The position numbers and the translations under genes were made by a program. A model generated the notes under the pieces. The model did no database searches and was not told the DNA's origin. It saw nothing but the letters and a program-made list of their open reading frames with translations. Below are positions 2,084 to 34,788 of a stretch of DNA of 64,000 nucleotides, in pieces. Each line of letters opens with the position of its first letter. Position 1 is the stretch's first letter. The stretch lies in the NCBI RefSeq assembly GCF_011045215.1, contig NZ_CP049201.1; one strand, 5' to 3'. This DNA comes from Escherichia coli (GTDB lineage: Bacteria > Pseudomonadota > Gammaproteobacteria > Enterobacterales > Enterobacteriaceae).

Positions 2084-2110
2084 CGCGCTTCGCTTGTCTG
2101 CTGCTTCGCC

Positions 2111-2133
2111 GGGGCATAAAAAATTTATGCCCC
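2111..2133 (+). other. Perfect 10-bp-stem hairpin (ggggcataaa/tttatgcccc) 28 bp after the portal stop; possible PQ-operon 3' structure
   Basis: Inverted repeat read directly from the sequence. There is no downstream T-run, so it is not called an intrinsic terminator. Confidence 0.4.
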
Positions 2134-2688
2134 GACTCTCCAGCTCTTGTATCAATCAGATAATTTCACGACGCTTTCCTGCTTATTGCCATCATCGACA
2201 GTCAGACTCTTACGCAATCCCACCGCGTTGACTGCATGTTCTCGCCGTCTCAGTGCGATTTTGACGGCCTTACCTTTCACCCCATCAAATCAAAAGCCCT
2301 CACGTCTTTTTCACGCTCAGCGTGAGAAATACAGCCATTCTGTTGTGTCGCTGCGACATCGTTCAGGGGATGCTATTTACCCCCTGAAACGCGGGCTGTT
2401 CCCCCGTCACCTGCGCGCAGAAAAAACGCGTTTTTTTGTGCACGCACGGTTCCCTGACGGATCCAGCCGCCACGCGGGTCGGAAGGGCAAAAAGTCGTTC
2501 AAAAAAATTGTGCAAATTTGTGCACTTTTGTGCAGGTAAGCATGCCCATATATTTGACCGTAGCTTGCCTTTGATGTAGTTTATGCGTCACAAAAACCAC
2601 AAAACGTGGTTATGATTTCTATGAGGGGGTTGATATGAAAAAAATGTATGATGAATTTGATGGTTTCTAAGCTACGTTGACCTCTAAT

Positions 2689-2717
2689 GAGGCGGGGATT
2701 TGCTCCCCGCCTTTTTT
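2689..2717 (+). terminator. Rho-independent terminator immediately upstream of the low-GC cassette
   Basis: GGCGGGGA-tttgc-TCCCCGCC stem-loop (8-bp GC-rich stem) followed by TTTTTT. Confidence 0.8.
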
Positions 2718-2731
2718 ATGGATGAAATAGG

Positions 2732-3229
2732 ATGAACCCAATAACACTACAAATCATCAGCAATGCTATTGTTCTGCTTGGCGTTTTGGTTGCCATTGGA
2801 ACCATTATCTACAATGTGCGTACCGCAAAAAAAACTCAAACGGCCAACTTTCTTTTTGAGAGTCGGCAAGATATGCAATATATAGAGTCATTGCATACCC
2901 TGAAACAAGTGCATCGTTCAGGCAAATCATTTCGTTCTTATGTTTTTCCTTGTGATGGTTGTACAATAACAGATGAGGAAATGGCCGAGCGTCGAAAATT
3001 TCAATATATTTTAAATTTTTACGAGCGAGTTGCTGTAAGTATTCGTGAAGGTATTTATGATGAAAAAATGATAAAAAGAACATCTTACACAACAGTTGTA
3101 GAGACATATGATATTGCCGAGCCATTAATTAAAGCAATCAGAGAAAGCATTAATTCGGATACTACATATCAAGAATTCGAATGGTTAGTAAGAAGATGGA
3201 AAGCTAATCCTTTACGGAAAAACAAATAA
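2732..3229 (+). CDS. Hypothetical single-pass membrane protein (165 aa), first gene of a low-GC cargo cassette; candidate defence/exclusion component
   Basis: ORF with an N-terminal hydrophobic helix (ITLQIISNAIVLLGVLVAIGTIIY) followed by a charged soluble domain. GC content is visibly lower than the flanking phage genes. No motif recognised. Confidence 0.7.
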   Translation: MNPITLQIISNAIVLLGVLVAIGTIIYNVRTAKKTQTANFLFESRQDMQYIESLHTLKQVHRSGKSFRSYVFPCDGCTITDEEMAERRKFQYILNFYERVAVSIREGIYDEKMIKRTSYTTVVETYDIAEPLIKAIRESINSDTTYQEFEWLVRRWKANPLRKNK

Positions 3230-3268
3230 TGTTTTACCCTTTAATTTACAAGTAACACAGGGGGAAGT

Positions 3269-4111
3269 GTGACACAGAATCCGTTTTCATTTTATGACTT
3301 TTTGGGCTATCTAATTCCAGGTGGGTTATTCCTGTTTATCCTTTTTTTGTTTTCTATTGAAATTAACCCTGTTTATATAGAAGGTATTCTTAACCACATC
3401 CTGAAATATAAAGAAATAATAAGTGTATTTATATATGTGGTATTAATTGTTCTATCATATATTTCAGGTCACTTCATATCTATTCTATCATCCTGTTTAA
3501 TTGAAAAATACATGAACAGTAAACTTGGGTATCCTTCAATTTATCTGTTTTCTAAAAGAAGCTCCCTGAAAATAAAACGACATAATACTAAGTTCAGTAT
3601 AGTTCATTTTATCCGTGGAGTTTTTTTACTTCCTGTATCAGCTTTTGATAAAGCAGAACATCATAAAACCACTCTGCATTCTATACTTATTAAAGTCTTT
3701 TGGCCGCAAATACGAGATGGTTATATAAATGTTTTTTCTGTATCTACGCTATATCGACGTAAGGGCTTGAGGGGCGATCTTTTTCGCCTTGCTTATCATT
3801 ATGTGTATGAACATTCTAAAAATCATCAGGTGAAAATGCAAAACTATGTTGCTTTGTATGGTTTTTGTAGAAACATTACATTTGTTTTTCTCGCTTCAGT
3901 CTGGTTGCTTATATGCCTGTTCCCTCTATCCTTTTTAATAGATATAAATATCAGGTTGTTACCTTTTTGTTTTCTTCTCTTGTTTTGTATTGCTGCATCC
4001 CGAGTATTTTATTATGGTTTTGTTAAGTATTATCGCCGCTATTCTCTTGAGGTTTTAATGGCATTTGCGGTACTTCAGCACGATAAAAAAACTTCGGCAA
4101 TTCCATCATGA
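3269..4111 (+). CDS. Hypothetical four-pass membrane protein (280 aa), second gene of the low-GC cargo cassette; candidate defence/exclusion component
   Basis: GTG start 6 nt after an AGGGGGA Shine-Dalgarno, 39 bp downstream of the previous gene. Four predicted hydrophobic helices (two N-terminal, two C-terminal) flank a ~110 aa basic central region. Low GC. Confidence 0.7.
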   Translation: MTQNPFSFYDFLGYLIPGGLFLFILFLFSIEINPVYIEGILNHILKYKEIISVFIYVVLIVLSYISGHFISILSSCLIEKYMNSKLGYPSIYLFSKRSSLKIKRHNTKFSIVHFIRGVFLLPVSAFDKAEHHKTTLHSILIKVFWPQIRDGYINVFSVSTLYRRKGLRGDLFRLAYHYVYEHSKNHQVKMQNYVALYGFCRNITFVFLASVWLLICLFPLSFLIDINIRLLPFCFLLLFCIAASRVFYYGFVKYYRRYSLEVLMAFAVLQHDKKTSAIPS

Positions 4112-4121
4112 TTTGAAACAT

Positions 4122-4146
4122 TGGCACCCTGTTAGCAAGGGTGCCA
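4122..4146. terminator. Hairpin between the convergent cassette gene and parR-like gene; possible bidirectional terminator
   Basis: tggcaccc-N9-gggtgcca 8-bp stem. The flanks are T/A-rich but lack a clean U-tract. Confidence 0.4.
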
Positions 4147-4194
4147 GAATGATGTGTTGGTATGTATTTTATTAGTTCAAATACAATTGTCAGA

Positions 4195-4509
4195 TTATTC
4201 TGGGAATAAGGTCTGAATATTCTTTTTTATTTTATAAAAATTGCATTCAACTCCGCTAGGCTGATTAGCCTGGTATGTTTCCTTGATGCTAACGGTATTG
4301 AAGGGGAGGTTGTCCTCTGGCCATTCGGCCATCCAGTAGGCAAATGCTGGGTTGCGCTTTATGAGTGCTAGCCCAGCCAGAAAGGCCGCGCGTTGCGCGC
4401 GGCTGCGTTCGGAGGCTGGCAGGCTATCGAGGTAATTGCACGCCTCCTGTTCACTCTTGACGGCGGCGGGCTTCAGATAGAAACTTATCCGTCTGGTTGG
4501 TGTCGTCAT
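4195..4509 (-). CDS. parR: ParR-like partition adaptor / centromere-binding protein
   Basis: 104 aa ORF directly downstream of the parM-like gene. The segment ISFYLKPAAVKSEQEACNYLDSLPASERSRAQRAAFLAGLALIKRNP resembles the plasmid R1 ParR N-terminal ribbon-helix-helix region, as recalled from memory. Confidence 0.7.
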   Translation of the reverse strand: MTTPTRRISFYLKPAAVKSEQEACNYLDSLPASERSRAQRAAFLAGLALIKRNPAFAYWMAEWPEDNLPFNTVSIKETYQANQPSGVECNFYKIKKNIQTLFPE

Positions 4510-4513
4510 TGGT

Positions 4514-5473
4514 TTACTCCTTGTTCATTGCGTACAGTCCATTAACCAGAGCAAACTGTGGCACCCCGTCCGCGATGAAAGTCGCATTAACTCCGCAGGC
4601 TTCGCGGATAGCGGGTGCCACAATCTCCGCCCCGCCACCGACAACCATCACCCGCCCGTAACCCGAAAAAACCGCCAGCGCGCGGATCACGCGTTGTTTC
4701 AGTGTTTCTTCCTTTTCACGAATAACCGCCATCAGGCTGGCGTAATGCGCGTCATTGTGGATGTGCTGGCGCAGCCAGGCTTCATCATGGCGATGTTCGA
4801 TAATGGTATTGGCGATGTGGTGACTGGTGCGCATACCGTTAGTGGCCATCACCGACAGTACGGCATCGGCCATCAGAGAAACGCCTACGTGTGGATCGCA
4901 AAACACCTGGCTGATACCTGCCAGTTGCCCCTGGACCTTTGCCACATCCAGCGTGGTTCCGCCCAAATCCACAATCAGCAGGGATTCAAACGGACTCATG
5001 TCAGCCAGTGCCTTAAAGCCAGCCGGAATGGATTCAGGCATAACCCGTACGTTACGGATAGTGAATGCTTCGCCGTTCTGGTACTCCACCGGGCGCATGA
5101 CGTTCGCTTTTTTGCGGTTGATGTTGGCCATGTCCGGCTGTGCGTTTGTGTCGAAATATTCGCTCAGTGGCAGGGTGACAACCACATCCACTTCCTGTGG
5201 TGTGATGCCTGATTTGACCAGCGCGTGATGAATGGCAATGACATTCACATCGCTGTACTGGTATTGCGTGTCGGTCGTCTGGACAAAGCGATCGCTGACC
5301 GGATCAAAACCATAGCGCACGCCATCAACCATGTAGTTCGCGGGCTGCGTGCCACCGAACGGCGCAGACCATTCCGACTTGAAGCTGTTCGGGCTGATGG
5401 CGTTGCGGCGTTCGCCGTTCTCAGTCCATGCCAGCTTGATGTTGGTGGAGCCGTCATCGATACAAATTTTCAT
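4514..5473 (-). CDS. parM: ParM/StbA-like actin-type segregation ATPase
   Basis: 319 aa. The N-terminus MKICIDDGSTNIKLAW and motifs LIVDLGGTTLD and VMVVGGGAEI resemble R1 ParM (actin-fold phosphate and adenosine motifs). An AAGGAAAAG Shine-Dalgarno lies upstream. Confidence 0.85.
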   Translation of the reverse strand: MKICIDDGSTNIKLAWTENGERRNAISPNSFKSEWSAPFGGTQPANYMVDGVRYGFDPVSDRFVQTTDTQYQYSDVNVIAIHHALVKSGITPQEVDVVVTLPLSEYFDTNAQPDMANINRKKANVMRPVEYQNGEAFTIRNVRVMPESIPAGFKALADMSPFESLLIVDLGGTTLDVAKVQGQLAGISQVFCDPHVGVSLMADAVLSVMATNGMRTSHHIANTIIEHRHDEAWLRQHIHNDAHYASLMAVIREKEETLKQRVIRALAVFSGYGRVMVVGGGAEIVAPAIREACGVNATFIADGVPQFALVNGLYAMNKE

Positions 5474-5507: not shown

Positions 5508-5613
5508 GCGGGATTCTGAAATCCCGTTTTTGCCTGTTTTATGCGCGCTTCATATATCGCGGCGCGTTTTTTGCTCATTTACGGGATTTGTGAATCCCGT
5601 TTCTGTCTGTTTT
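5508..5613. repeat. Two ~33-bp direct repeats, each containing a gggatt-N5-aatccc inverted repeat, upstream of parM; candidate parC-like centromere/promoter or plus-strand terminator hairpins
   Basis: Repeat 1 at 5508-5540 (gcgggattctgaaatcccgtttttgcctgtttt) and repeat 2 at 5581-5613 (acgggatttgtgaatcccgtttctgtctgtttt). Repeat 2 overlaps the 3' end of the gpA-like gene. Confidence 0.5.
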
Positions 5614-8373
5614 TTTGTTTCCACTGGTCAGGCTACCCTGCAGCAGGTCTGCTTTGCGGCGGGCGCGTTCAGTGGTTTCACTGATTCTCTGTGCGTGCTC
5701 TGCGTCACAAATGGCGCGCAGCATGTCAGAAAGCACGGTAACGGGTGTTTTCATGGTGTTCTGGACCTGCTGAAGTGTGGATGCCAGGCGTGCGGCGGCT
5801 TCGGGGTCTGATGCCCCGAGCTGTGCCAGATAGCTGGCGACCGGGTTATGGCGGATCTCCGTGCTGCTTACGCCGTGATTACGGCTCAGGCGCTGCCAGA
5901 GCTGCGTGATTCGGCTGTCCGGGCGGGTATCCGGTTTACGTACAATTTCAAATCCCTGCGGTGAAATGATGCTGCCGTCAACGTACAGACTGCCGCCCCG
6001 TAACAGGTGCTGCATCTGCTGTTCACCGATATGCAGGCCGAGAGATTCAGCAGACTCCCGCCATTCTTTAGCGAGTAACTCGTGGTTATCAGGCAAAGGC
6101 CGCGGCTGTTTGCGGCTCTGTGTCCAGCTCTGCATTTCATCGCTGCTGTTTTTTGCCTGTTTGTCACGAAGCGAACGCATCAGCGCCCGGCGTTCGTGCC
6201 GTTTCAGTGAGCGCATCCATTCATTCACTTCAACGCCGTCAGGAAGCTGCGGCCACGGTGCTGGCCGTTCTTCCGACTGTTCTGTCCCGCTGTTGCCTGT
6301 TTCCTGTACACGGGGACAGTTATTGCCACGAGTCCAAGGGGCGGCAGGGCCGCCCTGAAGGTCAAAACCATTTTCGCGGGCGCTGTCTTCCGCTTCCGGT
6401 TTACGTCTTACCAGCTTCCAGTTATCCGGATGCGTGCACACACGGGAGGATTCCCCGATGAGTGGTGACCAGATCCCGTAAATCTGTACGCTCTGTTCGC
6501 CGTAATCGTTCAGCTCATCTGCGAGGTCGTAGGCGGTGCGAATCAGGTAGTCTTTACGTGGAACAAGTACGCCACCCTGTTTCTCAATGTAGGTGGCAAA
6601 ACATCCGGCATCAGCGGCAGCAAGAACCGCATCCATTGCGTCATCCTTCAGCCGTTGCGGGCCTTCCGGGTTGCGTGCCATCTGGCTGGCAAGGCGGCGG
6701 AGTTCACGCCACACCTGACGGGAGGGAATGCCAAAGAACTGGAACTGGCGGACCCGGTGAAGGCGCGCCCAGCCGATGGCGCGCTCCACGCTCTCGGCCA
6801 TTGATTTACCTGTTTCGTGGTCAACGCGTGGCTTGCCCGTTTTCGGGTCGATGCCATCCACGGCACGGCTGTCCAGGTTTTTCCCAATGTAGGTGGCGAT
6901 GTAGCTGGTCGGTGTGCCTTTTGAGCCGTCGACGTACTCCGCCTTAAAGCGTGGGGTAATATCATCACCCAGCTCGTGACGATCTTCCTGAATGGCAATA
7001 TCGCGGGTGTGGGACACAATGGTGTCGATTTCTTCCGGATGAGCAAAGACCATCATATGCCAGTGCACGGTGCCGTCATGGTGAGGCTCCACCGTGCGGA
7101 TGCCATACCAGCGCAGGCCGTCGCGGTTCAGTTTCTTGCGGACCGCCGCAAAAAACGTGTTAACCAGGTAATCGCTGGAGTCGCGCATGGTGGCCCCGTT
7201 CCATTTGGGATTCGGATGACCGTTCTCCGTTGTTGCGTGGTATTTTGACGGGCAGGTGACAGTCAGAAACACCGCTCTGTCGCCACGGGCTTCGGCCAGA
7301 AGTTCCAGCCCCTTCATGGTGGCCATCATTTCTGCCTTACGGTGAACCGGGTTACTTACTCCCGCGTAATACACTGTCTCGAGATCAATCGTGAACCCGT
7401 CTTCATTTTCCAGCATGAAACTTTTCAGGAAATCGCGTGTTTTCTCGCGCTGTGCGCGAAACTCGCTTAACGCGTCCTGGCTCAGATATGGTGATGTTTT
7501 TCTGGAAACCAGACAGGCGGCGCGGAGTTGTTCTTCTCTCCACTCGCAACGTAACAGCCACAGTTTGCGTTTCCACCATTCCGCACAGGTCAGGCGAAGG
7601 ATTGCGCCCGGCAGCAGCTCCGTGTCCGGTTCGTTCCTCCGGTCTTTGTCTGTCGTCAGTGCGTCATAATGTGGAGGCATGGCGTGCAGGTGTAACGCCA
7701 TGCGGGCCAGCATCTGATACGCCTTCAGCGTTACATCCATGGTCAGTTCACCATCAGTCGCGCCAAAGCCATCGCAGAGTTTTTCGAAGGTGCTGCTGAA
7801 CATCGCCGCCGTCATGGTGGCCAGCGTCTGTATCTGGTGTTTGTTGAGCTGCGGCAGGTAAAGCAAATCGTCCAGGCGTTCGCGTCCGGCAAGGGAGCGA
7901 TAACCCGGTGTCAGCCAGCGTCCGTCAGTGCGATCCAGACGTTCGAATATTTTGCGCAGGGTTCCGCGTGCATAGCGTTCCGCCTGCCAGCTCTTTTTGC
8001 CTTTCCTGCGATCGGCTTCCTGTTTTTTGCGCAGGAAGGAGAGGTGGCGAATAAGCGGATCGCGCAGATAGGACGGCAGCAGGCGCAGCGAGGCCATGGC
8101 TTCATCCACCGCGCCGCGTGCCTGTTTTCTGGCGTCTCCTGCCAGTGTGATGGTTTTGTCCTGTTTTTCCTGTGCGTCCAGGCTTTTATTAATCAGGTTG
8201 CCCAGCGGCGTGGCGGAGAACGCCGCATCAGCCATTTCCTGGCGGCGCTCGTTCTCTGCCCGGTAGGCATCCAGCCAGGAGGAAAGCGCGGATTCAGGAG
8301 CGGGGATCCCCGTTCCTTCACGCCCCACTGCGTGGCGCGGTTGTTGCCAGTCCCTGATGTACTCTGCCGTCAT
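5575..8373 (-). CDS. Phage replication initiation protein, P2 gpA family (HUH rolling-circle endonuclease)
   Basis: 932 aa ORF containing a TVHWHMMVF motif of the HUH type. Its position after the early-operon genes matches gene A of P2/186. Confidence 0.85.
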   Translation of the reverse strand: MTAEYIRDWQQPRHAVGREGTGIPAPESALSSWLDAYRAENERRQEMADAAFSATPLGNLINKSLDAQEKQDKTITLAGDARKQARGAVDEAMASLRLLPSYLRDPLIRHLSFLRKKQEADRRKGKKSWQAERYARGTLRKIFERLDRTDGRWLTPGYRSLAGRERLDDLLYLPQLNKHQIQTLATMTAAMFSSTFEKLCDGFGATDGELTMDVTLKAYQMLARMALHLHAMPPHYDALTTDKDRRNEPDTELLPGAILRLTCAEWWKRKLWLLRCEWREEQLRAACLVSRKTSPYLSQDALSEFRAQREKTRDFLKSFMLENEDGFTIDLETVYYAGVSNPVHRKAEMMATMKGLELLAEARGDRAVFLTVTCPSKYHATTENGHPNPKWNGATMRDSSDYLVNTFFAAVRKKLNRDGLRWYGIRTVEPHHDGTVHWHMMVFAHPEEIDTIVSHTRDIAIQEDRHELGDDITPRFKAEYVDGSKGTPTSYIATYIGKNLDSRAVDGIDPKTGKPRVDHETGKSMAESVERAIGWARLHRVRQFQFFGIPSRQVWRELRRLASQMARNPEGPQRLKDDAMDAVLAAADAGCFATYIEKQGGVLVPRKDYLIRTAYDLADELNDYGEQSVQIYGIWSPLIGESSRVCTHPDNWKLVRRKPEAEDSARENGFDLQGGPAAPWTRGNNCPRVQETGNSGTEQSEERPAPWPQLPDGVEVNEWMRSLKRHERRALMRSLRDKQAKNSSDEMQSWTQSRKQPRPLPDNHELLAKEWRESAESLGLHIGEQQMQHLLRGGSLYVDGSIISPQGFEIVRKPDTRPDSRITQLWQRLSRNHGVSSTEIRHNPVASYLAQLGASDPEAAARLASTLQQVQNTMKTPVTVLSDMLRAICDAEHAQRISETTERARRKADLLQGSLTSGNKKTDRNGIHKSRK

Positions 8374-8817: not shown

Positions 8818-9048
8818 TTAATGGAGTTTGTTTTGCTGCTGGATGAGCTGTTGAAGCTCGTGCAGATCATCCGCCAGATAGCTGAAAACAGAGGCGGAAT
8901 AAATGTTTGATAGTGCGTGGCTGCGCTCATGCCGCATATTGATGTGCATGATTTGCGCGACGCGTGATGCGCGGGAAAGTCTGCGGTTGATTTCAGTCTG
9001 GATGTGACGACGCTCCGCGATAGCGCGGTGCTGTTTGCGGTCTGCCAT
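8818..9048 (-). CDS. Hypothetical phage early-operon protein (76 aa)
   Basis: ORF with an AAGAGG Shine-Dalgarno ~8 nt upstream of the ATG. Basic, helical-looking sequence. Confidence 0.45.
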   Translation of the reverse strand: MADRKQHRAIAERRHIQTEINRRLSRASRVAQIMHINMRHERSHALSNIYSASVFSYLADDLHELQQLIQQQNKLH

Positions 9049-9370
9049 GGTGTGGCCTCTTTGCTCGGTGATAGAAATAACTCACCATCCAGAGTTGAGA
9101 ATCTCGGGGTGGCGAGACGTACAGGGTTCTCAACACCGGAGAGCAAAGAATCCGGCCCGACCGAAGTCGGCCCCGTACGCCCCGCCATAATTCTGACGCG
9201 AAAAAGACGTGGCAATACAGTACGCACAAAAAAACCGCTTGCGCGGTTATGCGCTTTGCTCTGTATCGGGTTGAGAATCCCGGCACCCGTTTTATGAGGT
9301 GCAGCGGAAATGTAACCTGACCGATTGAGGCATGGCAAGCGGTTTTTTTGTGTGTGCATGTTCTGGTTTC

Positions 9371-9670
9371 TTAGTGGTTCAGAAAAAAATCAAAAACCTT
9401 GTCAATGCGTTGCAGCAGCTCTTTCTGTATTGCTTCCGGCGTTTCCGGTTCGCCTGGCGCCTCCAACGTCGCGCAGAAATCCTCGATTTCATGACGGAGC
9501 GTCAGGCGAATGGCGAGAGGTGTGGTTTTGGCGTGCTCCAGCTGATCCAGCAGTGCCAGCACAGCAGACGGCGAGAGCATTGCGCGAAATGCCAGTAATT
9601 TTTGAGGAGTTGCCATTCGTTGCAGGGCAAATGCCAGTTCGCGTAGCTTCTGGTGGTTGGTGGTGCTCAT
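9371..9670 (-). CDS. Hypothetical phage early-operon protein (99 aa)
   Basis: ORF whose start overlaps the stop of the upstream gene (ATGA), typical of this operon. Confidence 0.55.
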   Translation of the reverse strand: MSTTNHQKLRELAFALQRMATPQKLLAFRAMLSPSAVLALLDQLEHAKTTPLAIRLTLRHEIEDFCATLEAPGEPETPEAIQKELLQRIDKVFDFFLNH

Positions 9671-9933
9671 GTTCTGGCTTCCTTCAGTAGCTGGTTAAAC
9701 ATGTGAGTAAGTGGATTGCTACACCCGAACGGCATCGGGTTTACGTGGTAAGAAGCCTGGCCTCCAGTTTTGCGAGCGCGACCACCTGTGCTGCGGTTTG
9801 TTCTGATGACTAAGCCGCCGCGCCAAAGTCGGCGTAACTCAGTATTAATAGCTGTGGTTGGGGTGTTCAATGCTGCGGCGATCTCTCCGCCGCTACACCC
9901 CGGATGAGTAGCGATGTAGTCCAGAATGGTCAT
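9667..9933 (-). CDS. Putative winged-helix DNA-binding protein (88 aa)
   Basis: The sequence ILDYIATHPGCSGGEIAAALNTPTTAINTELRRLWRGGLVIRT looks like a winged helix-turn-helix. Translationally coupled to both neighbours. Confidence 0.6.
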   Translation of the reverse strand: MTILDYIATHPGCSGGEIAAALNTPTTAINTELRRLWRGGLVIRTNRSTGGRARKTGGQASYHVNPMPFGCSNPLTHMFNQLLKEART

Positions 9934-10133
9934 CTGCGTGGCTCCTGTACCTGTCGGATAAGATTCACCCGCGCCACGTTGGTGGCGCAGAAGTAAGTGC
10001 CGTCAGTGAGGTAGATGTGGTGTGCATCCTTTTCCGAACGATGTTTGTCGATAGTGGTAATCAGGCGTTCGTCGACCTCGTATTCGCGCCCTCTGGAGGT
10101 AAAGCGAACGACGGGAAAATGCTTAATTGCCAT
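9930..10133 (-). CDS. Hypothetical phage protein (67 aa)
   Basis: ORF with a 4-nt overlap onto the downstream gene. Confidence 0.5.
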   Translation of the reverse strand: MAIKHFPVVRFTSRGREYEVDERLITTIDKHRSEKDAHHIYLTDGTYFCATNVARVNLIRQVQEPRR

Positions 10134-10156
10134 TGCGCCCCCTTTGTCCAGTAACC

Positions 10157-10573
10157 CTATGCGTTAAATACGGCACGTTGCGCGTCATCAATGAATACAG
10201 CTTGAGAGCGTTCTATCAGGCGGAGATTTGTCAGAAGCTCTGACTCTTTTGTGTGGTAAGGCGTTATCAGGTATTTGCCGTGCAGTTCGGCAATAATGGT
10301 GTATTGCAGCATCATTGCTGAACCAAGAATATAAATGCAGCGTCCAATGCTGGACGGATTCATGGCTGCAACTGTTGACTGTGTTTTAAGAGTGTCGATT
10401 TCTTTGCTCTGTTCCTCAATAATTTTGGCTGCGTCAGCGGTGATTTTTGCAATGGTCAGTGCGTGAAGTGCTGCCATATGTTGGCTACGCTTCACGGCAT
10501 CTTTAGCCATTTCATCTTCCGCTTCTGATATTTTTTTTAATGTGTCGATAATGCCTTCTTCTTTTGCGTTCAT
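10157..10573 (-). CDS. Hypothetical phage protein (138 aa)
   Basis: ORF with a GGAGAT Shine-Dalgarno upstream. No recognisable motif. Confidence 0.55.
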   Translation of the reverse strand: MNAKEEGIIDTLKKISEAEDEMAKDAVKRSQHMAALHALTIAKITADAAKIIEEQSKEIDTLKTQSTVAAMNPSSIGRCIYILGSAMMLQYTIIAELHGKYLITPYHTKESELLTNLRLIERSQAVFIDDAQRAVFNA

Positions 10574-10665
10574 TTTATATCTCCGTTATTTACGTGTGCG
10601 AATACCTCCGCGAATGCGGATAGTTTTCAGGTTTTCGGGTTTAATCTGGTGTTTTGTTTAAGCTG

Positions 10666-10779
10666 TTATTCGTCAGTGAAAAAGCGTTCAATCTTTTTTA
10701 CTGAATGAATAATTCGCATAATCCCAATGGCGCAGGCCACCGAAATAATCAGAACAAGCCATGAGATAAATATACTCAT
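10666..10779 (-). CDS. Possible small hydrophobic protein (37 aa, MSIFISWLVLIISVACAIGIMRIIHSVKKIERFFTDE)
   Basis: Not in the supplied ORF track; read by hand. Its ATG overlaps the stop of the upstream 80-aa gene (ATGA), and it encodes one predicted transmembrane helix. Confidence 0.35.
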   Translation of the reverse strand: MSIFISWLVLIISVACAIGIMRIIHSVKKIERFFTDE

Positions 10780-11018
10780 GCGATATTCCCCAGCTTATAC
10801 GGTTCAATGTGTTCCCCGCATTCTGCGGCACAGATCAGCTCGGAAAGTTCGTTAAGTGCATCCAGATCATCAGCGTAAAAAGCGACGTCATACAAACTCC
10901 GGATTGCCCTGGTCAATGAGTCACGGGCTGCACGTTCAGCATGAGCGCCTGATGCACTTAAGCGAAAATAAAATCGTTCAAGTGCTTTATTAATGAGAGT
11001 TTTATATTCTTTGCCCAT
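10776..11018 (-). CDS. Hypothetical phage protein (80 aa)
   Basis: ORF in the operon series. Confidence 0.5.
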   Translation of the reverse strand: MGKEYKTLINKALERFYFRLSASGAHAERAARDSLTRAIRSLYDVAFYADDLDALNELSELICAAECGEHIEPYKLGNIA

Positions 11019-11029
11019 CGCAACGCCCT

Positions 11030-11308
11030 TTAATCTGCTTTCTGAATTTCAGCTTCTGAATCCATACAAATAATTTCGATATAGGGTTCATCGCCATTAA
11101 CCTGACGTGCCTTTTCAGCTTCGCTAATGATTTCTCGTACGGTCTGGTACGGAAGCTCCACAGTCAGGCGCGTACCGTTCAGATAAACGTAAGTAGCTGC
11201 GTTTTTTTCTGATGGGACGACTCCATCAATAGCTGATGCGCGTAATAACAGTTCACCGCGAAAATCAATAAAACGGATAAATACACCTTGTGCATGCTCT
11301 TTGGCCAT
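11030..11308 (-). CDS. Hypothetical phage protein (92 aa from ATG at 11308)
   Basis: The track ORF runs to 11407, but the ATG at 11308 has an AGGTG Shine-Dalgarno and avoids overlapping the upstream gene. Confidence 0.5.
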   Translation of the reverse strand: MAKEHAQGVFIRFIDFRGELLLRASAIDGVVPSEKNAATYVYLNGTRLTVELPYQTVREIISEAEKARQVNGDEPYIEIICMDSEAEIQKAD

Positions 11309-11318
11309 AAAGCACCTG

Positions 11319-11777
11319 TTATAAATCAGCCTGTTTAATGAAATTCTGTCCGCGCAGCAGACGATCAACCGTGCGTAGCGCTTCGTACAATGTGAAATCC
11401 TGCCCAAACTGATTGTCGCCGTTGCTCAGAGCAAAAATGCGGTTTCCGGTAAATGGGTTGTGCGGGCATCTGTGAACCACGATTCCAGCTTTCTCAATCA
11501 GCCAGGTGTGTTCACCAATTTGTTTTACGGGATGGCCATCAGGTGTGGCGTGTGTTTCGCTCAAGCTGTAGCGAGAGTTGCTACGCGATGCACTGTTAGC
11601 GAAACGGTTAGCATGGTGTTCCGCCCCGTTGCGGAAGCGTTGCTGTGAAGAATTGCACTGTTGCTTCATGTCAAAAACTCCGTACCTATTTACTTCCCCG
11701 GCATAACGCCCATTTTCAAAGTAATTGCGACGAAATCCCGTGTTGTGGGGCTTGCCATTTCGCTGCTGCTTACTCAT
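11319..11777 (-). CDS. Hypothetical phage protein (~152 aa from ATG at 11777)
   Basis: The track ORF starts at a TTG at 11804. The ATG at 11777 (MSKQQ...) has a GAGG Shine-Dalgarno and does not overlap the upstream gene. Confidence 0.5.
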   Translation of the reverse strand: MSKQQRNGKPHNTGFRRNYFENGRYAGEVNRYGVFDMKQQCNSSQQRFRNGAEHHANRFANSASRSNSRYSLSETHATPDGHPVKQIGEHTWLIEKAGIVVHRCPHNPFTGNRIFALSNGDNQFGQDFTLYEALRTVDRLLRGQNFIKQADL

Positions 11778-11788
11778 TTTTCGTGCCT

Positions 11789-11995
11789 CTACCCGATGAG
11801 CCAAATAACAAACGCTGTGAGCACCGCACCAATGGTGATCGGAAAAAGACCTCTGGCATAAGCGGCGAGGTAATGAACGTTGAGAACAATAAAGCGTTCT
11901 TTTTGTCCTGTTAGCTTGCTAAGCAGATAAATCGCTATTACACCCACTTCTAGGAATACAAGGTCCAAAATGGCGCTGGTGATATTGTTGGTCAT
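11789..11995 (-). CDS. Small membrane protein (68 aa, two hydrophobic helices)
   Basis: ORF directly downstream of the cox-like gene. Hydrophobic composition. Confidence 0.5.
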   Translation of the reverse strand: MTNNITSAILDLVFLEVGVIAIYLLSKLTGQKERFIVLNVHYLAAYARGLFPITIGAVLTAFVIWLIG

Positions 11996-12001
11996 TTATG
12001 A

Positions 12002-12289
12002 TTAAAGCCCCAGCCACAACAACCATGCATCGCGGCGTTCTTTCGGCTGATCAAAAAACGCTTTGCGCATACCTGCGTTAAATGCTGGCAGATATACCCA
12101 GTTTTCTGATGCTCGCGTCTTCACTGAACCTGGTTTCACAAAGTCAATCGTTGGTAATTTTGCAGCGTCAATCATGGTTCTGACGGTTGATTCTTTGCGA
12201 CCAATCATCTTGGCAAATAGTTGATATGGCACCGCTTCAAGTGGATATGGTGCTACCTGAATGAACCCCTCAAGCTCTGATTCGCTCAT
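12002..12289 (-). CDS. cox: Cox-like excisionase / lytic-switch regulator (P2 Cox family)
   Basis: The segment PYQLFAKMIGRKESTVRTMIDAAKLPTIDF...NWVYLPAFNAGMRKAF...RDAWLLWLGL resembles remembered P2 Cox. It is the first gene of the leftward operon, divergent from the repressor gene. Start chosen at MSESE (AAGGAG Shine-Dalgarno); the track ORF extends to 12325. Confidence 0.75.
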   Translation of the reverse strand: MSESELEGFIQVAPYPLEAVPYQLFAKMIGRKESTVRTMIDAAKLPTIDFVKPGSVKTRASENWVYLPAFNAGMRKAFFDQPKERRDAWLLWLGL

Positions 12290-12404
12290 TGTGGTAATCT
12301 CCTTAATTCGTCCAAATGGCCCCAAATGGCTTATATAGGCTTATTTTGGCTATTTGAATGTTTTGTATTACATGTAACCCAATAGCGTGGAGTTTAGATC
12401 ACAT
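12290..12404. promoter_or_regulatory. Divergent early/repressor promoter-operator region (Pe/Pc-type immunity switch)
   Basis: 115-bp AT-rich intergenic region between the divergent cox-like and C-like genes. It carries tandem CCAAATGGC repeats (12312-12320, 12322-12330) and GGCTTA repeats. Confidence 0.6.
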
Positions 12405-12725
12405 ATGATCCATAAATCAAGCCTTGGAGAAAAACTTCGCCTGATTCGAGAGGCAGAGGGATTGTCACGTAGAGAGATGGAAGAGGTGACAGGGGTATCT
12501 CAAAACAATCTCAAAAATTATGAAATATTGGGAAGAATGATACCTGGAGAAACGCTACTCCTGATTTTGAATCATCCTCGTTTTCGGAAGTATTCGGATT
12601 GGGTGATGTTTAATCAAACTAATGCTGCGACGGGGCAGATTGCTCCGCCTCTCTCTCTTGATGGCTTCTTCGATTCGGAGGGCGATCAGGTTTCAACCGA
12701 AACAAACCAAAAATCACCCCGCTAA
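12405..12725 (+). CDS. Immunity repressor, P2 C-like (HTH)
   Basis: The segment LSRREMEEVTGVSQNNLKNYE...RFRKYSDWVMFNQTNAATGQIAPPLS resembles remembered P2 C (LSRQQLADLTGVPYGTLSYYE...QFTKYTLWFMTNQIAPESGQIAPAL). Start placed at the ATG at 12405; the track GTG at 12387 lacks a Shine-Dalgarno. Confidence 0.75.
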   Translation: MIHKSSLGEKLRLIREAEGLSRREMEEVTGVSQNNLKNYEILGRMIPGETLLLILNHPRFRKYSDWVMFNQTNAATGQIAPPLSLDGFFDSEGDQVSTETNQKSPR

Positions 12726-33270: not shown

Positions 33271-34788
33271 GTGGTAGCCCATCAACTGAGCGCCGATCAC
33301 CACGACGCTGGACATAATAAACAGCAGTCCAAGCAGGGTCGCGCCCACCTTCAGCCAGTTACGGAAGTCCACCCGGCAAACACCGAGCGTCGCCATTAAC
33401 GAAGCTGAGGTCGGGTAAATGATGTGACTGAAGCCATCACCAAACTGGAACGCCAGCACGGTAACCTGACGGTTAACACCGACCAGATCGCCAAGCGGTG
33501 CCAGTAACGGCATGGTTAACGCCGCCTGACCAGAACCGGACGTCACGAAGAAATTAAATACCGCCTGGAAGAGCAACATAAACCAGGCCGCGACCGCGTT
33601 GTCCAGACCGCTAATGGCATTGGCAATGCTGTTGAGGATAGTATTTAACACGCTGGCATCACCCGCTTCACCATTACCGACCAGCAGCAAAATCCCTTTG
33701 GCGAAACCCACCAGCAGGGCAGGGGCGATCATCATTCGCGCCCCTTCGGTGAAGGATGAAGCCATGGTATTAACCGTCATACCGTTAAGGCGGAAAATAA
33801 CGCCGATGATGCCAATCACCAGACCCATGGTGAAGAACTGGCTGGCAATTTCTGGAATAAACCAGGCATTAACGATCACGCCCCAAATCACCCAGACCAT
33901 TACGGCGGTCAGGACAATCAATACCAGCCAGTCACCAAAGGTAAACGGACGTTGTTCAACATCCGCCTGCTTTTCACGAAAGAAGCGGTCGGACTCATGC
34001 ACGCGTGACAGAAGAGGATTCTTTTTCACTCGTGAGGCGTACACCATGGTAAAGATCAGGCCAATCAGAGTGGCGATAACCCACACCACGATGCGCAACC
34101 CGGAGCCAGAAAGCACCGGAACGCCGGCAATCCCCTGAGCAACAACCACACAAAACGGGTTCATCCACGAACTGGCAAAACCGATTTGCGTGGCAATATA
34201 GGTCACCAGGACGGTGGTAATACTGTCATAGCCCAGCCGGACCATTAGCGGTGCGATGATAATGGCAAAGGCGACGGCCTCTTCCCCCATACCAAATACC
34301 GCGCCGCCAAGTGAAAACAGAATAAACAGCGCAGGAATAAAGAGAATTTCATTCCCGCGGGTATGGCGAATAAGCGCCAGGATACCGTTATCAATGGTTC
34401 CTGTACGCATCACAATGCCAAACGCGCCGCCAATCACCAGCATAAACATGATGATGCCAACGGCTGTCCCGTATTTCGATCCTGAGGTTAACCCTTCAAA
34501 CGGGAAGTTCATCAGGCCCGGGCGTTCATCGCCCGTCGTGAACAGCTGTACGCGGTGATACTCAGGTTCGCCTGCTTCGTTAGTCAGAATGCGAAATGAG
34601 TGTGGATCTACGACTTTGCGTGTTTTTGTTTGACCATCAACCTGATACTGCACTTCCTGACTGTCAAACATCCCCACCGGAACTACCCAGGTGGCAAGGC
34701 TGGTTAAAATAGCAACAAAAAAGATAATCACCAACGTATCGGGCATTGCCCATCTTCTTGTTGGTTTGGATTCAGTGATTGCGGACAT
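33268..34788 (-). CDS. yfcC: Putative inner-membrane transporter YfcC
   Basis: Polytopic membrane protein. Start taken at MSAITESK (506 aa); the track ORF extends to 34809. Confidence 0.9.
   Translation of the reverse strand: MSAITESKPTRRWAMPDTLVIIFFVAILTSLATWVVPVGMFDSQEVQYQVDGQTKTRKVVDPHSFRILTNEAGEPEYHRVQLFTTGDERPGLMNFPFEGLTSGSKYGTAVGIIMFMLVIGGAFGIVMRTGTIDNGILALIRHTRGNEILFIPALFILFSLGGAVFGMGEEAVAFAIIIAPLMVRLGYDSITTVLVTYIATQIGFASSWMNPFCVVVAQGIAGVPVLSGSGLRIVVWVIATLIGLIFTMVYASRVKKNPLLSRVHESDRFFREKQADVEQRPFTFGDWLVLIVLTAVMVWVIWGVIVNAWFIPEIASQFFTMGLVIGIIGVIFRLNGMTVNTMASSFTEGARMMIAPALLVGFAKGILLLVGNGEAGDASVLNTILNSIANAISGLDNAVAAWFMLLFQAVFNFFVTSGSGQAALTMPLLAPLGDLVGVNRQVTVLAFQFGDGFSHIIYPTSASLMATLGVCRVDFRNWLKVGATLLGLLFIMSSVVVIGAQLMGYH

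What the first reader, a model, noticed from the sequence alone, without database searches (positions are those of the whole stretch)
2732..4111. Low-GC two-gene membrane-protein cassette in the P2 tin/old hotspot: candidate undescribed anti-phage or exclusion system
Two co-oriented genes 39 bp apart encode a single-pass membrane protein (165 aa) and a four-pass membrane protein (280 aa) with a basic central loop. The cassette is much more AT-rich than the flanking phage genes and host backbone, so it looks horizontally acquired. It sits between the portal/cos end and the replication genes, where P2 carries old and tin; that position is an established hotspot for anti-phage systems in P2-like prophages. 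Neither protein shows a motif I recognise (no nuclease, ATPase, TIR, HEPN or kinase signature), and the pair does not match the systems I recall from this hotspot (Old, Tin, PARIS, Kiwa, retrons). The all-membrane composition suggests membrane-disrupting abortive infection or injection-blocking exclusion.
Basis: partly seen in the sequence, partly recalled or inferred. Interest (0 to 1): 0.9.

Follow-up and report, generated by a model that had tools for sequence, protein, structure and literature searches.

The report
Stacked prophage accessory genes with hidden micro-peptide
The two membrane-protein genes are real and sit in a known anti-phage hotspot of a P2-like prophage, but they are separate add-on genes rather than a matched pair, and the first one's constant partner is an unannotated 11-residue peptide gene just upstream.

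Summary
The sequence observation is confirmed. ORF1 (2732-3229, 165 aa, one TM, Pfam DUF4760) and ORF2 (3269-4111, 280 aa, four TM, basic cytoplasmic loop) lie 39 bp apart. Their GC is about 0.33, against 0.51-0.58 in the flanks. They sit between the portal gene and parMR/gpA of a P88-like P2 prophage.

The cassette is not undescribed. Rousset et al. 2022 list this exact pair as P2-hotspot "system #3" (1,102 E. coli occurrences). It is absent from their tables of tested systems.

The pair is not a co-evolving system. ORF2 accompanies DUF4760 only in one near-clonal E. coli lineage (8 of 52 viral DUF4760 loci). None of 80 bacterial ORF2-family loci has a DUF4760 gene. Other P2-like phages carry DUF4760 alone, or followed by Gabija.

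What always accompanies DUF4760 (56 of 58 loci) is a micro-ORF with a strong ribosome-binding site (window 2635-2670, MKKMYDEFDGF) followed by a GC hairpin/terminator. The same peptide motif occurs in at least 116 viral stretches, including T4-like phages without DUF4760.

The DUF4760 model is closest to plant EDS1-family EP domains, with moderate scores. ORF2 belongs to a large unannotated family with weak Csx27-like similarity, sometimes found beside Gabija, RM or PIN genes. Function is untested; I favour phage exclusion or abortive infection.

The parts
2110..2134 (+). Perfect 11-bp inverted repeat (CGGGGCATAAA/TTTATGCCCCG) just after the portal stop codon. Probable terminator of the terminase-portal operon and left limit of the hotspot.
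   Evidence: the repeat finder I7; sequence.
2554..2582 (+). Putative promoter of the DUF4760 unit: TTGACC, 17-nt spacer, TAGTTT. It is conserved as TTGACT-N17-TA(A/G)TTT in other P2-like DUF4760 loci. The -10 element is weak by consensus, so this is an inference from conservation.
   Evidence: Upstream sequences of L107, L109, L116, L120 and L122 compared with the window. The consensus scan did not report it.
2595..2611 (+). Operator-like palindrome AACCAC-N5-GTGGTT between the promoter and the micro-ORF. Other lineages carry different palindromes at the same place.
   Evidence: L107 and L120 have AACCAC..GTGGT; L109-type loci have two TTCAC-N6-GTGAA palindromes.
2635..2670 (+). Unannotated micro-ORF encoding MKKMYDEFDGF (11 aa), with Shine-Dalgarno GAGGGGG at 2624-2630. 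It belongs to a conserved peptide family ending in [DE][DE][FY][DE][GW][FVL].
   Evidence: Present upstream of DUF4760 in 56 of 58 loci, with synonymous codon changes. The DEFDGF-stop DNA pattern gives 116 viral stretches. Not annotated in RefSeq.
2689..2719 (+). GC-rich hairpin (10 bp, loop 5) followed by T6: an intrinsic-terminator-like element 18 nt after the micro-ORF stop and 12 nt before the DUF4760 ATG.
   Evidence: scan_promoters_terminators. An equivalent hairpin with a different sequence is present in every locus examined. A perfect-stem hairpin of -10 kcal/mol or stronger occurs in 25 of 27 loci, against 8 of 162 random windows. No Rfam family matches.
2732..3229 (+). ORF1, 165 aa: DUF4760 protein. 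N-terminal TM helix plus a cytoplasmic five-helix domain. Weak or absent Shine-Dalgarno.
3269..4111 (+). ORF2, 280 aa: four-TM protein of a large unannotated family (phrog_12528). Invariant polar residues include D10, H68, S74, E79, H177, H186, R201, K253 and E261. Own Shine-Dalgarno GGGGGAAG. Probably co-transcribed with ORF1.
   Evidence: Weak Csx27, tm_4 and PDC-M48A similarity.
4122..4146 (.). Hairpin TGGCACCC-N9-GGGTGCCA between the convergent ORF2 and parR genes. Likely a bidirectional terminator and the right limit of the '+' strand cargo.
   Evidence: Sequence read directly.
4195..5473 (-). parR-like (4195-4509) and parM-like (4514-5473) partition genes. This is a separate hotspot module (Rousset system #1) and not part of the cassette.
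   Evidence: phrog_2515 and phrog_691 'partition protein'; RefSeq names; Rousset Table S5B system #1 with near-identical sequences.

Best explanation
Window 2540-5473 is a stack of independently mobile accessory modules in the cos-proximal gpQ-gpA hotspot of a P88-like P2 prophage.

Module 1 is a conserved unit made of a promoter, a micro-ORF encoding MKKMYDEFDGF, a GC hairpin/terminator and the DUF4760 gene. Module 2 is a stand-alone four-TM gene (ORF2) that landed 39 bp downstream and is read from the same transcript. Module 3 is parMR.

Shown here: the anatomy, the independence of ORF1 and ORF2, the near-obligate linkage of the micro-ORF and hairpin to DUF4760, and the wider distribution of the peptide.

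Inferred mechanism, which I commit to with low-to-moderate confidence: both membrane proteins serve phage-versus-phage conflict (exclusion or abortive infection) for the lysogen. For module 1 I favour a toxin-antitoxin-like logic. The strong ribosome-binding site, promoter-proximal position and terminator would produce much peptide and, through read-through, little DUF4760. The short-lived acidic peptide would bind the cytoplasmic, EP-domain-like receptor part of the membrane-anchored DUF4760 and keep it inert. When infection shuts off host transcription or titrates the peptide, DUF4760 would be freed to damage the membrane. Peptide-only genes in other phages, including T4-like and rival P88-like phages, would then act as antitoxin mimics.

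ORF2 would be an autonomous membrane effector of the kind that rides beside Gabija, RM and PIN-nuclease genes.
For: Organisation:
- ORFs, GC and topology.
- Hotspot definition and catalogue entry #3.

Independence of the two genes:
- None of 80 GTDB loci with ORF2 relatives has DUF4760 within 8 kb.
- Only 8 of 52 viral DUF4760 loci and 7 of 52 viral ORF2 loci carry both genes. All of these are at least 97% identical E. coli P88-like loci.
- DUF4760 is the sole '+' strand cargo in L107-L112 and L116-L120. It is followed by GajA and GajB in L115.
- ORF2 relatives stand alone next to xis/int in lambdoid prophages.

Peptide linkage:
- 56 of 58 DUF4760 loci have the micro-ORF and hairpin, down to 33% protein identity and in chromosomes as well as phages.
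- The DEFDGF codons show synonymous substitutions.
- Hairpins are present in all loci despite unrelated sequences.

Favouring a trans-acting peptide over a cis-acting leader:
- The stop codon varies (TAA, TGA, TAG).
- The distance from stop codon to hairpin ranges from 0 to 38 nt.
- Some hairpins lack a U tract.
- The motif is tandemly repeated in some peptides (MLDEFEGFDEFDGF).
- Peptide genes occur without DUF4760 in 58 of 80 fetched viral hits.
- The peptide motif drifts in distant DUF4760 lineages (DEFEWV, DVIDGL, DEYDWF).

Defence context:
- Hotspot base rates. In Rousset 2022, 3 of 8 additional P2 systems plus the AC1 system were active. In the 2026 preprint, 6 of 8 unknown P4 loci were protective.
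- ORF2 relatives lie directly after GajA and GajB (L095), after type I RM-sized genes (L092, by size and one HsdM-like sequence), near HerA and a patatin effector, and in an operon with a PIN_8 gene.
- ORF2 relatives give repeated weak hits to the defence-associated membrane proteins Csx27, tm_4 and PDC-M48A.
Against: - There is no experimental datum for any part. The cassette is absent from the tested sets and from the searchable literature.
- An 8-13 aa peptide acting in trans would be unusual. The layout of ribosome-binding site, micro-ORF, terminator and a gene without its own ribosome-binding site is also the classic look of a cis-acting attenuator.
- The peptide precedes unrelated genes (gp47, a primase, a 174-aa unknown), which fits a portable regulatory leader as well as a mimic.
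- No toxicity of DUF4760 is shown.
- DUF4760 also sits alone in ordinary chromosomal contexts.
- Most ORF2 relatives are stand-alone genes with no defence neighbour that I could test. Enrichment in defence islands was not quantified, because I chose which neighbours to scan.
- The Csx27 hits are weak (E 1e-3 to 1e-8) and mostly cover the N-terminal 60-80 residues.
Confidence: 0.33

Rival explanations
1. The micro-ORF is a cis-acting leader. Its nascent peptide (…DEFDGF) or its translation status controls formation of, or read-through past, the downstream hairpin/terminator. DUF4760, and here ORF2 as well, would then be made only under a particular condition, such as translation stress or a metabolite change during infection. 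The peptide would have no function in trans. The membrane proteins could still be defence effectors.
For: - The architecture is a strong ribosome-binding site, a micro-ORF, an intrinsic terminator about 17 nt later, and a gene start 12-25 nt after that with little or no ribosome-binding site.
- Amino-acid-level conservation with synonymous changes is also what arrest peptides show.
- The same micro-ORF plus hairpin precedes unrelated genes in other phages, as a portable regulatory cassette would.
Against: - No alternative antiterminator pairing is evident in the AT-rich leader (read).
- The stop codon is not conserved, and the spacing from stop codon to hairpin varies from 0 to 38 nt.
- Several hairpins lack a U tract (L010, L135, L148, L149, L225).
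- Tandem motif repeats inside some peptides look like binding motifs.
- The motif diverges in distant lineages although the ribosome tunnel is conserved.
- No Rfam leader family matches.
Confidence: 0.27
2. One reading: DUF4760 and the four-TM protein form one obligate two-component membrane system, a sensor plus pore or a similar arrangement, that aborts infection or blocks injection.
For: - The genes are co-oriented and 39 bp apart, with no terminator between them.
- They are retained together without decay in 288 of 5,426 complete E. coli genomes.
- Rousset lists them together as a single 'system'.
Against: - All co-occurrences belong to one lineage of at least 97% identity.
- DUF4760 at 76-90% identity occupies the same spot without ORF2 in 16 other P2-like loci.
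- No ORF2 relative in 80 diverse genomes or in 45 non-P88 viral loci has a DUF4760 neighbour.
- ORF2's nearest relatives drop from 86% to 48% identity, while DUF4760 relatives form a continuum. The two genes therefore have different histories.
Confidence: 0.1
3. The module serves the phage rather than the host, as counter-defence or host take-over. The acidic peptide with a C-terminal Phe would mimic an acidic protein-interaction tail and block a host or rival factor. From memory, the E. coli SSB tip is DFDDDIPF and phage polymerase clamp-binding tails are similar. DUF4760 and ORF2 would be lysogenic-conversion or phage-physiology membrane proteins unrelated to exclusion.
For: - The peptide genes occur in virulent T4-like (Karamvirus PG7), roughly 77-kb and jumbo phages, next to replication and recombination genes such as gp47 and primase.
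- The unit is the first gene after the genome end and has its own promoter.
- DUF4760 also occurs in plain chromosomal settings.
Against: - The hotspot is dominated by defence cargo.
- DUF4760 sits in lysogeny or immunity regions, for example beside Arc, repressor and Ant genes in L010.
- The resemblance to SSB and clamp tails is recalled from memory, not tested.
- This reading does not explain the near-100% coupling of the peptide to a membrane-anchored protein.
Confidence: 0.15

Closest known systems
P2-hotspot 'system #3: DUF4760' in Rousset et al. 2022, Cell Host Microbe, Table S5B (PMC9122126)
   Same: It is the same two proteins at the same locus. Protein 1 differs at one residue and protein 2 at a few. 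The table also gives the same topology note, '1 TM in protein 1, 4 TM in protein 2'.
   Different: That entry is a catalogue line only. It gives no function and no test: the sequences are absent from Tables S2A and S2B. It does not mention the micro-ORF or the independence of the two genes.
Csx27 (type VI-B1 CRISPR accessory membrane protein) and the PADLOC models tm_4 and PDC-M48A
   Same: These are small multi-pass membrane proteins found beside defence genes. ORF2 and many of its relatives give repeated hits to these models and to no other membrane-protein model in PADLOC. The best hit is E 1.3e-8, and ORF2 itself scores E 6e-6 over residues 6-243 against model positions 4-178 of 206.
   Different: The hits are weak and mostly N-terminal. 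ORF2 is about 75-115 residues longer, with a 115-aa basic loop. No cas13b gene or CRISPR array is nearby. Smargon et al. reported no Csx27 outside VI-B loci. The mechanism of Csx27 itself is unknown; it repressed Cas13b.
EP domain of plant EDS1/PAD4/SAG101 (PF18117), the receptor for TIR-made nucleotide signals
   Different: There is no sequence similarity (6-10% identity) and Pfam gives no EP hit. DUF4760 lacks the lipase-like domain and instead has a TM anchor. No TIR gene is adjacent. The scores fall short of proving homology. The literature says EP domains have no structural relatives outside the EDS1 family (PMC6377607), so the link would be new if real.
Ligand-gated small membrane effectors of defence systems (Csx23, Cam1, Cap15, Pycsar TM effectors; named from my own knowledge)
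   Same: Same general design: one to a few TM helices plus a small cytoplasmic ligand-binding domain, expected to perturb the membrane when triggered.
   Different: Those effectors are paired with a signal-making enzyme, and none is encoded here. There was no sequence or model match in PADLOC. This is an analogy only.
mccA-terminator-mccB arrangement of microcin C operons (from my own knowledge: a 7-aa gene followed by a terminator that sets a high peptide-to-enzyme ratio)
   Same: A tiny translated ORF is followed at once by an intrinsic terminator, and the downstream genes are expressed by read-through.
   Different: The peptide and the downstream proteins are unrelated to those here, and no adenylating enzyme is present. 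This is an analogy for expression logic only and was not tested.
Toxin-antitoxin abortive-infection systems and phage antitoxin mimics (ToxIN with pseudo-ToxI, RnlAB with Dmd; from my own knowledge)
   Same: The proposed logic is the same: an abundant labile neutraliser is encoded first, a scarce stable effector second, and invading phages carry copies of the neutraliser.
   Different: No known antitoxin is an 8-13 aa peptide. Neither toxicity nor neutralisation is shown here.

Membership tests
Pfam DUF4760 (PF15956) | Significant match to the family HMM over its full length | tested here: met
   ORF1 residues 12-156 match model positions 2-141 of 141, E 1.3e-34. AFDB50 neighbours are all DUF4760 proteins, with TM-scores up to 0.98.
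Rousset 2022 P2-hotspot system #3 | Same two protein sequences between gpQ and gpA of a P2-like prophage | tested here: met
   The sequences in Table S5B match ORF1 and ORF2. Portal lies upstream and parMR/gpA downstream.
Kiwa (KwaA + KwaB) | KwaA four-TM protein together with a DUF4868 KwaB protein | tested here: not met
   No PADLOC KwaA or KwaB hit for either protein at E<=1. Pfam finds no DUF4868.
Csx27 / type VI-B1 accessory | Confident full-length match to the Csx27 model | tested here: inconclusive
   E 6e-6 for ORF2. Relatives score E 1e-3 to 1.3e-8, mostly against model positions 4-65.
Csx27 / type VI-B1 accessory | Encoded next to cas13b and a CRISPR array | tested here: not met
   The neighbours are portal, DUF4760, parR and parM, and no cas gene is annotated in the region. 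None was recognised among the neighbours I examined in 80 genome loci.
2TM + 1TM + TIR system of P2-like phage AC1 (Rousset 2022) | TIR protein plus its two membrane partners | tested here: not met
   No TIR gene is present. hhalign of the DUF4760 profile against the AC1 1TM protein gives probability 0.3%.
EDS1-family EP domain (PF18117) | Sequence-profile match to the family and fusion to a lipase-like domain | tested here: not met
   Pfam reports only DUF4760. The protein is 165 aa, consisting of a TM helix and a helical bundle.
EDS1-family EP domain (PF18117) | Same fold | tested here: inconclusive
Toxin-antitoxin / abortive-infection module | The effector is toxic alone and is neutralised by its upstream partner | not testable with these tools
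   Only the gene order, the relative strengths of the ribosome-binding sites and the terminator placement are consistent with this.
Known superinfection-exclusion proteins (SieA, SieB, Imm, Cor and others) and known defence systems | Homology to a characterised member | tested here: not met
   No PADLOC, NCBIfam or Pfam assignment. The matching PHROGs families have unknown function. No relatives in the PDB by sequence.
Curated RNA leaders and attenuators (Rfam 15) | Match to a described cis-regulatory family | tested here: not met
   The best hits across 2606-2729 have E 0.19-8.7, far below the gathering scores.

The most novel reading that the evidence does not exclude
DEFDGF-type micro-peptides (8-21 aa) would be a widespread and so far unnoticed currency of phage conflict. 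DUF4760 would be a membrane-anchored effector with an EP-domain-like receptor, the first prokaryotic relative of the plant EDS1 EP fold. Its cognate 11-aa peptide would hold it off, making this a toxin-antitoxin or abortive-infection system with the smallest known protein antitoxin. Virulent T4-like phages and rival P2-like phages would carry peptide-only genes as antitoxin mimics. ORF2 would represent a separate, very large family of Csx27-like membrane effectors that act alone or attach to Gabija, RM and PIN systems.
Probability: 0.12. Interest if true: 0.9.

Novelty: new variant of a known kind. Interest (0 to 1): 0.62.

Why it matters
This is the third most common cargo of the E. coli P2 hotspot. 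Rousset counted 1,102 occurrences, and I found it in about 5% of complete E. coli genomes. It still has no assigned function.

Splitting it into its real units changes which experiments make sense. Each gene should be tested alone, and the 36-nt micro-ORF must be kept or mutated deliberately.

If the micro-peptide controls DUF4760, this would be a new type of very small regulator or antitoxin. It is found from P2-like prophages to T4-like phages. It would also give a function to a Pfam DUF that is widespread in Proteobacteria.

If the EP-domain resemblance is real, it would link a plant immune receptor fold to bacterial and phage proteins.

The ORF2 family has about 1,050 clusters at 50% identity across many phyla and no Pfam entry. 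It is a sizeable blind spot in defence-island annotation.

Tried and rejected
1. **YfdS/YfdT of K-12 CPS-53 as remnants of the ORF2 homolog.** The solo homologs sit between yfdR and a torI-like xis. There was no HMM or tblastn similarity, so I rejected this.
2. **DUF4760 related to the 1TM protein of the AC1 2TM+1TM+TIR system.** hhalign probability 0.3%.
3. **DUF4760 related to the 174-aa protein that follows the micro-ORF in other P88-like prophages.** hhalign probability 0.1%.
4. **Solved-structure relatives by sequence for either family.** None found.
5. **Structure of ORF2.** The AF2 model had pLDDT 58.6, too poor for a fold search.
6. **Rfam match for the leader.** None.
7. **Literature searches for 'DUF4760' and 'DEFDGF'.** One irrelevant genomic-island paper and two chance strings.
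8. **P2's cos sequence in the window.** Absent, so the cos position stays unknown.
9. **An antiterminator alternative to the hairpin.** I saw no C-rich or G-rich partner in the AT-rich leader. This was by eye only.
10. **A strong, full-length Csx27 link through Bacteroidota relatives.** The hits stayed weak.
11. **Annotated names for ORF2 relatives in phage GenBank records.** All are 'hypothetical'.
12. **A DEFDGF micro-ORF in phage T4.** None in the two regions I examined.
13. **parMR as a functional partner, i.e. an addiction module.** DUF4760-only P2-like loci lack parMR, so I rejected this.
Full report
**1. The observation**

ORF1 is 2732-3229(+), 165 aa. ORF2 is 3269-4111(+), 280 aa with a GTG start. 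They are 39 nt apart, and RefSeq annotates both in the 100%-identical E. coli KSC9 chromosome.

GC falls to 0.29-0.35 across the cassette. The portal, parM and gpA genes are at 0.54-0.58, and the window as a whole is at 0.515.

Hydropathy analysis gives one N-terminal TM helix in ORF1, followed by basic residues, which puts the rest of the protein in the cytoplasm. ORF2 has four TM helices and a 115-residue loop with 20 K/R, which puts the loop and both termini in the cytoplasm.

The KSC9 annotation shows that window 1 to about 13,830 is the right arm of a P2-like prophage inserted next to pdxB. The cassette lies between terminase/portal and parR-parM-gpA. This is the gpQ-gpA hotspot described by Rousset et al. 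2022. P2's own cos sequence is not present, so I could not place cos exactly.

**2. It is catalogued but untested**

Pfam assigns ORF1 to DUF4760 (E 1.3e-34) and gives ORF2 nothing. PHROGs places both proteins in families of unknown function. NCBIfam finds nothing. PADLOC gives only a weak Csx27 hit for ORF2.

System #1 in that table is the parMR pair that also sits in this window. The sequences do not appear in that paper's tables of validated or additionally tested systems. A 2026 preprint on P2/P4 hotspots tested unknown genes only from P4. 'DUF4760' occurs in one unrelated paper in the searchable library.

I found the cassette in 288 of 5,426 complete E. coli genomes and in three P88-like phage records, always at 95-100% identity.

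**3. The two genes are not a co-evolving pair**

ORF2's relatives at about 45% identity sit alone next to xis/int in lambdoid prophages of E. coli and Enterobacter. DUF4760 relatives at 47-67% identity sit alone in chromosomes of Rahnella and Enterobacter sp. R4-368. One also sits in the immunity region of a Providencia prophage.

I then looked at this systematically:
- A profile of the ORF2 family finds 1,051 cluster representatives (235 at E≤1e-30).
- Eighty loci from GTDB species representatives carry an ORF2 relative. They span Gammaproteobacteria, Bacteroidota, Bacillota, Acidobacteria, Verrucomicrobia, Chloroflexi and Myxococcota. None has a DUF4760 gene within 8 kb.
- Of 52 viral loci with DUF4760, only 8 also have ORF2. 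All 8 are E. coli P88-like with at least 99% identical DUF4760.
- Of 52 viral loci with ORF2 relatives, only 7 have DUF4760.

Sixteen other P2-like phages carry DUF4760 (76-90% identity) at the same place after the portal gene, without ORF2. In nine of the eleven I examined in detail, everything between DUF4760 and gpA lies on the opposite strand; in seven of those nine it includes a Dam-like methylase. DUF4760 is therefore the only '+' strand cargo there. In L115 the slot that ORF2 fills here holds a complete Gabija (GajA E 7e-228, GajB E 2e-146). In L122 it holds a ParA-like gene and a PDC-S33-like gene.

The sensible reading is that DUF4760 is a semi-conserved edge gene of the hotspot in one P2 subfamily. 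ORF2 is a separate piece of cargo that landed behind it.

**4. What is really coupled to DUF4760**

Reading the upstream DNA of all DUF4760 loci shows a constant unit:
- A good Shine-Dalgarno sequence.
- A micro-ORF of 8-13 codons. The window has 2635-2670, MKKMYDEFDGF. The consensus is M-K/R-K-x-Φ-D-E-F-D-G-F. Variants include DEFEGF, DEFEWV, EEFDGF, DEYDWF, DDYEGF and DVIDGL.
- A GC-rich hairpin about 17 nt later. In the window this is 2689-2713 followed by T6.
- The DUF4760 start codon 12-25 nt after the hairpin, usually with no Shine-Dalgarno of its own.

Fifty-six of 58 loci have this unit. The two exceptions are a rearranged upstream region (L100) and a contig end (L105). The unit persists down to 33% protein identity, and it occurs both in non-P2 phages and in chromosomes.

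The DEFDGF codons differ synonymously between loci, so selection acts on the peptide sequence. The hairpins have unrelated sequences but are always stable, at -12 to -25 kcal/mol. A perfect-stem hairpin of -10 kcal/mol or stronger lies within 60 nt of the stop codon in 25 of 27 loci, compared with 8 of 162 random windows from the same loci.

A promoter-like TTGAC(C/T)-N17-TA(G/A)TTT and a lineage-specific palindrome precede the micro-ORF in the P2-like loci. Rfam has no matching family. The peptide string is absent from the literature library. RefSeq does not annotate the micro-ORF.

**5. The peptide family is wider than DUF4760**

The degenerate DNA pattern for DEFDGF followed by TAA matches 116 stretches in IMG/VR. 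My rough estimate of the chance expectation is about four. I fetched 80 of them. Of these, 66 lie in ORFs of 8-34 codons with a start codon. The other 14 are open frames of 16-82 codons with no start codon, mostly the deletion derivatives described below. Among the 64 unique contexts, 50 have an in-frame ATG and 37 have a Shine-Dalgarno-like sequence before it.

Only 22 are followed by DUF4760. The rest include:
- MYDEFDGF, MKDEFDGF and MLDEFDGF.
- Tandem versions such as MLDEFEGFDEFDGF.
- A 21-aa form in T4-like Karamvirus phages. In Enterobacter phage PG7 it is annotated as hypothetical protein CG98_gp053, just upstream of gp47.
- A copy upstream of a primase gene.
- A copy in other P88-like prophages, where MKKKRMNDEFDGF and a hairpin without a U tract lie between a zf-ClpX-like gene and an unknown 174-aa gene.

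A frequent deletion derivative in those prophages removes the micro-ORF start codon but keeps the 174-aa gene.

**6. What the proteins look like**

*DUF4760.* AlphaFold gives a confident model (pLDDT 91.9): a long helix, residues 3-46, that includes the TM segment, then a compact five-helix domain. It agrees with AFDB models of DUF4760 proteins from many Proteobacteria.

The plant literature states that EP domains have no structural relatives outside the EDS1 family (PMC6377607). I treat this resemblance as a lead, not as homology.

*ORF2.* The ORF2 model was poor (pLDDT 58.6). The family alignment shows invariant polar residues (D10, H68, S74, E79, H177, H186, R201, K253, E261) and three strongly conserved motifs: NPFSxYDFLGY, DxFRxxYHYxxExSxxHxxKxQNYVALYGFxR and FxKFYRRFTLE. 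That pattern suggests more than a passive membrane anchor.

ORF2 and many of its relatives hit the PADLOC models Csx27, tm_4 and PDC-M48A weakly and repeatedly (E 1e-3 to 1e-8), mostly over the N-terminal motif and the first two TM helices. Smargon et al. had found no Csx27 outside type VI-B loci.

*Neighbourhoods of ORF2 relatives.* Most are stand-alone genes with long flanking gaps. Some lie directly after GajA and GajB (L095, 10-bp gap; probably also L016). Others lie after genes of type I RM size (L092, L024), near HerA (L084, L085) or near a patatin effector (L053). Seven or eight loci, mostly Bacteroidales, have an operon of a Cas2-like small gene (very weak match), a PIN_8 gene (E 6.6e-36) and the ORF2 relative. 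I chose which neighbours to scan, so this shows association in some cases, not measured enrichment.

**7. How it most likely works**

The modular anatomy is firmly shown. The function is inferred. I estimate about 45% that at least one of the two membrane proteins protects the lysogen against other phages. That estimate rests on three things:
- Hotspot base rates. In Rousset 2022, three of eight additional P2 systems plus the AC1 system were active. In the 2026 preprint, six of eight unknown P4 loci were protective.
- The alternation with Gabija in the same slot.
- The company kept by ORF2 relatives.

For the DUF4760 unit I favour a trans-acting peptide (about 35%) over a cis-acting leader (about 30%). 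Several features fit a short binding motif better than a ribosome-geometry device: the stop codon and the stop-to-hairpin spacing vary, some hairpins lack U tracts, the motif is repeated in tandem in some peptides, it drifts with distant DUF4760 lineages, and it exists without DUF4760 in many phages.

The expression design would yield much peptide and little DUF4760. That is how antitoxin-toxin pairs are built, and also how the microcin C peptide gene is arranged (the latter from my own knowledge). In this model the labile peptide holds DUF4760 inactive until infection stops its synthesis or removes it. Peptide-only genes in T4-like and rival P2-like phages would then be antitoxin mimics.

The peptide also resembles acidic C-terminal interaction tails such as the SSB tip DFDDDIPF. 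I recall that from memory and did not test it. It feeds the counter-defence rival.

**8. Comparison, novelty and verdict**

The cassette is the catalogued Rousset system #3. ORF1 is a member of DUF4760. ORF2 belongs to an unnamed family with possible distant kinship to Csx27. Neither protein is a member of Kiwa, the AC1 TIR system, any known Sie protein or any PADLOC system.

The claim that this is a hotspot candidate of unknown function stands.

The new elements found here are the obligate micro-ORF and hairpin partner of DUF4760, the wide phage distribution of DEFDGF micro-peptides, the EP-like fold, and the size and contexts of the ORF2 family.

I rate the finding as a new variant of a known kind, namely uncharacterised cargo of a known defence hotspot. 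Interest is moderate to high (0.62). There is about a 12% chance that the more radical reading, a peptide-antitoxin with an EP-like receptor, is right.

Noticed in passing
window 4195-5473 (-): ParR-like and ParM-like partition genes lie between the cassette and gpA. Rousset et al. list this pair as the most common P2-hotspot cargo (4,592 occurrences, about a quarter of P2-like phages) and suggest plasmid-like maintenance.
   Followed up: partly
window 5575-8373 (-): The replication gene gpA is an intact 932-aa ORF in the window. RefSeq nevertheless marks the corresponding KSC9 gene, which spans 25 nt more, as 'frameshifted'. The difference must lie at the C-terminal end.
   Followed up: no
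window 2504-2534 and 2595-2611: There are three TGTGCA repeats and overlapping palindromes just before the DUF4760 promoter. An AACCAC-N5-GTGGTT palindrome lies between the promoter and the micro-ORF. Related phages have different palindromes at the same position (two copies of TTCAC-N6-GTGAA). This suggests lineage-specific operator sites.
   Followed up: partly
window (whole); expected near 2135-2540: P2's 19-nt cos sequence GGCGAGGCGGGGAAAGCAC is absent even with 3 mismatches. This P88-like phage must use a different cos, and I did not locate it.
   Followed up: partly
L206 / L318 (Enterobacter phage PG7, NC_023561, record 34532-34597): A 21-aa gene, MFSLRKFDEEDFEFFDEFDGF, annotated as hypothetical CG98_gp053, is followed by a terminator and sits between a-gt.2 and gp47 in Karamvirus phages. 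The T4 regions I examined have no equivalent. This shows that DEFDGF micro-peptides exist in virulent phages.
   Followed up: partly
L225 8760-9400 (also L237, L258, L266, L271, L279); L218 5830-5860: Other P88-like prophages carry a different arrangement at the same hotspot: a zf-ClpX-like gene, the micro-ORF MKKKRMNDEFDGF, a hairpin without a U tract, and an unknown 174-aa gene. All are co-oriented with a parR variant of 52% identity. A common deletion derivative joins the parR stop codon to '…NDEFDGF' and removes the micro-ORF start.
   Followed up: partly
L072, L080, L082, L084, L085, L087, L096: There is a conserved operon, mostly in Bacteroidales: a ~93-aa Cas2-like protein (very weak match, E 0.06), a ~305-326-aa PIN_8 protein (E 6.6e-36) and an ORF2-family four-TM protein, with overlapping or near-touching genes. 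In L084 and L085 a defence-type HerA gene lies just upstream.
   Followed up: partly
L095 3744-8279; L016 465-3288: An ORF2-family gene follows GajA and GajB directly (10-bp gap) in a Clostridia MAG. Another follows a 612-aa UvrD-type helicase in a metagenome contig. This may be a recurrent Gabija-associated membrane gene.
   Followed up: partly
L001-L004 8001-8867 compared with L203 (K-12 CPS-53) 9512-10235: In KplE1/CPS-53-type lambdoid prophages the slot between yfdR and the torI excisionase is variable. K-12 has yfdS-yfdT-ypdJ there. Many other E. coli have a 288-aa ORF2 relative instead, with no homology between the two fillings.
   Followed up: yes
window ~11319-11669 and early region 9000-12500: The same prophage's early operon carries genes annotated DUF4761 and DUF4754. 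Like DUF4760, these are Pfam families of unknown function, and none has a described role.
   Followed up: no
P0229 (ENA metagenome protein, 287 aa): One database protein fuses a DUF4760 fragment to PF06541 (a putative type IV ABC-transporter membrane domain). It may be a real fusion or a gene-calling artefact.
   Followed up: no
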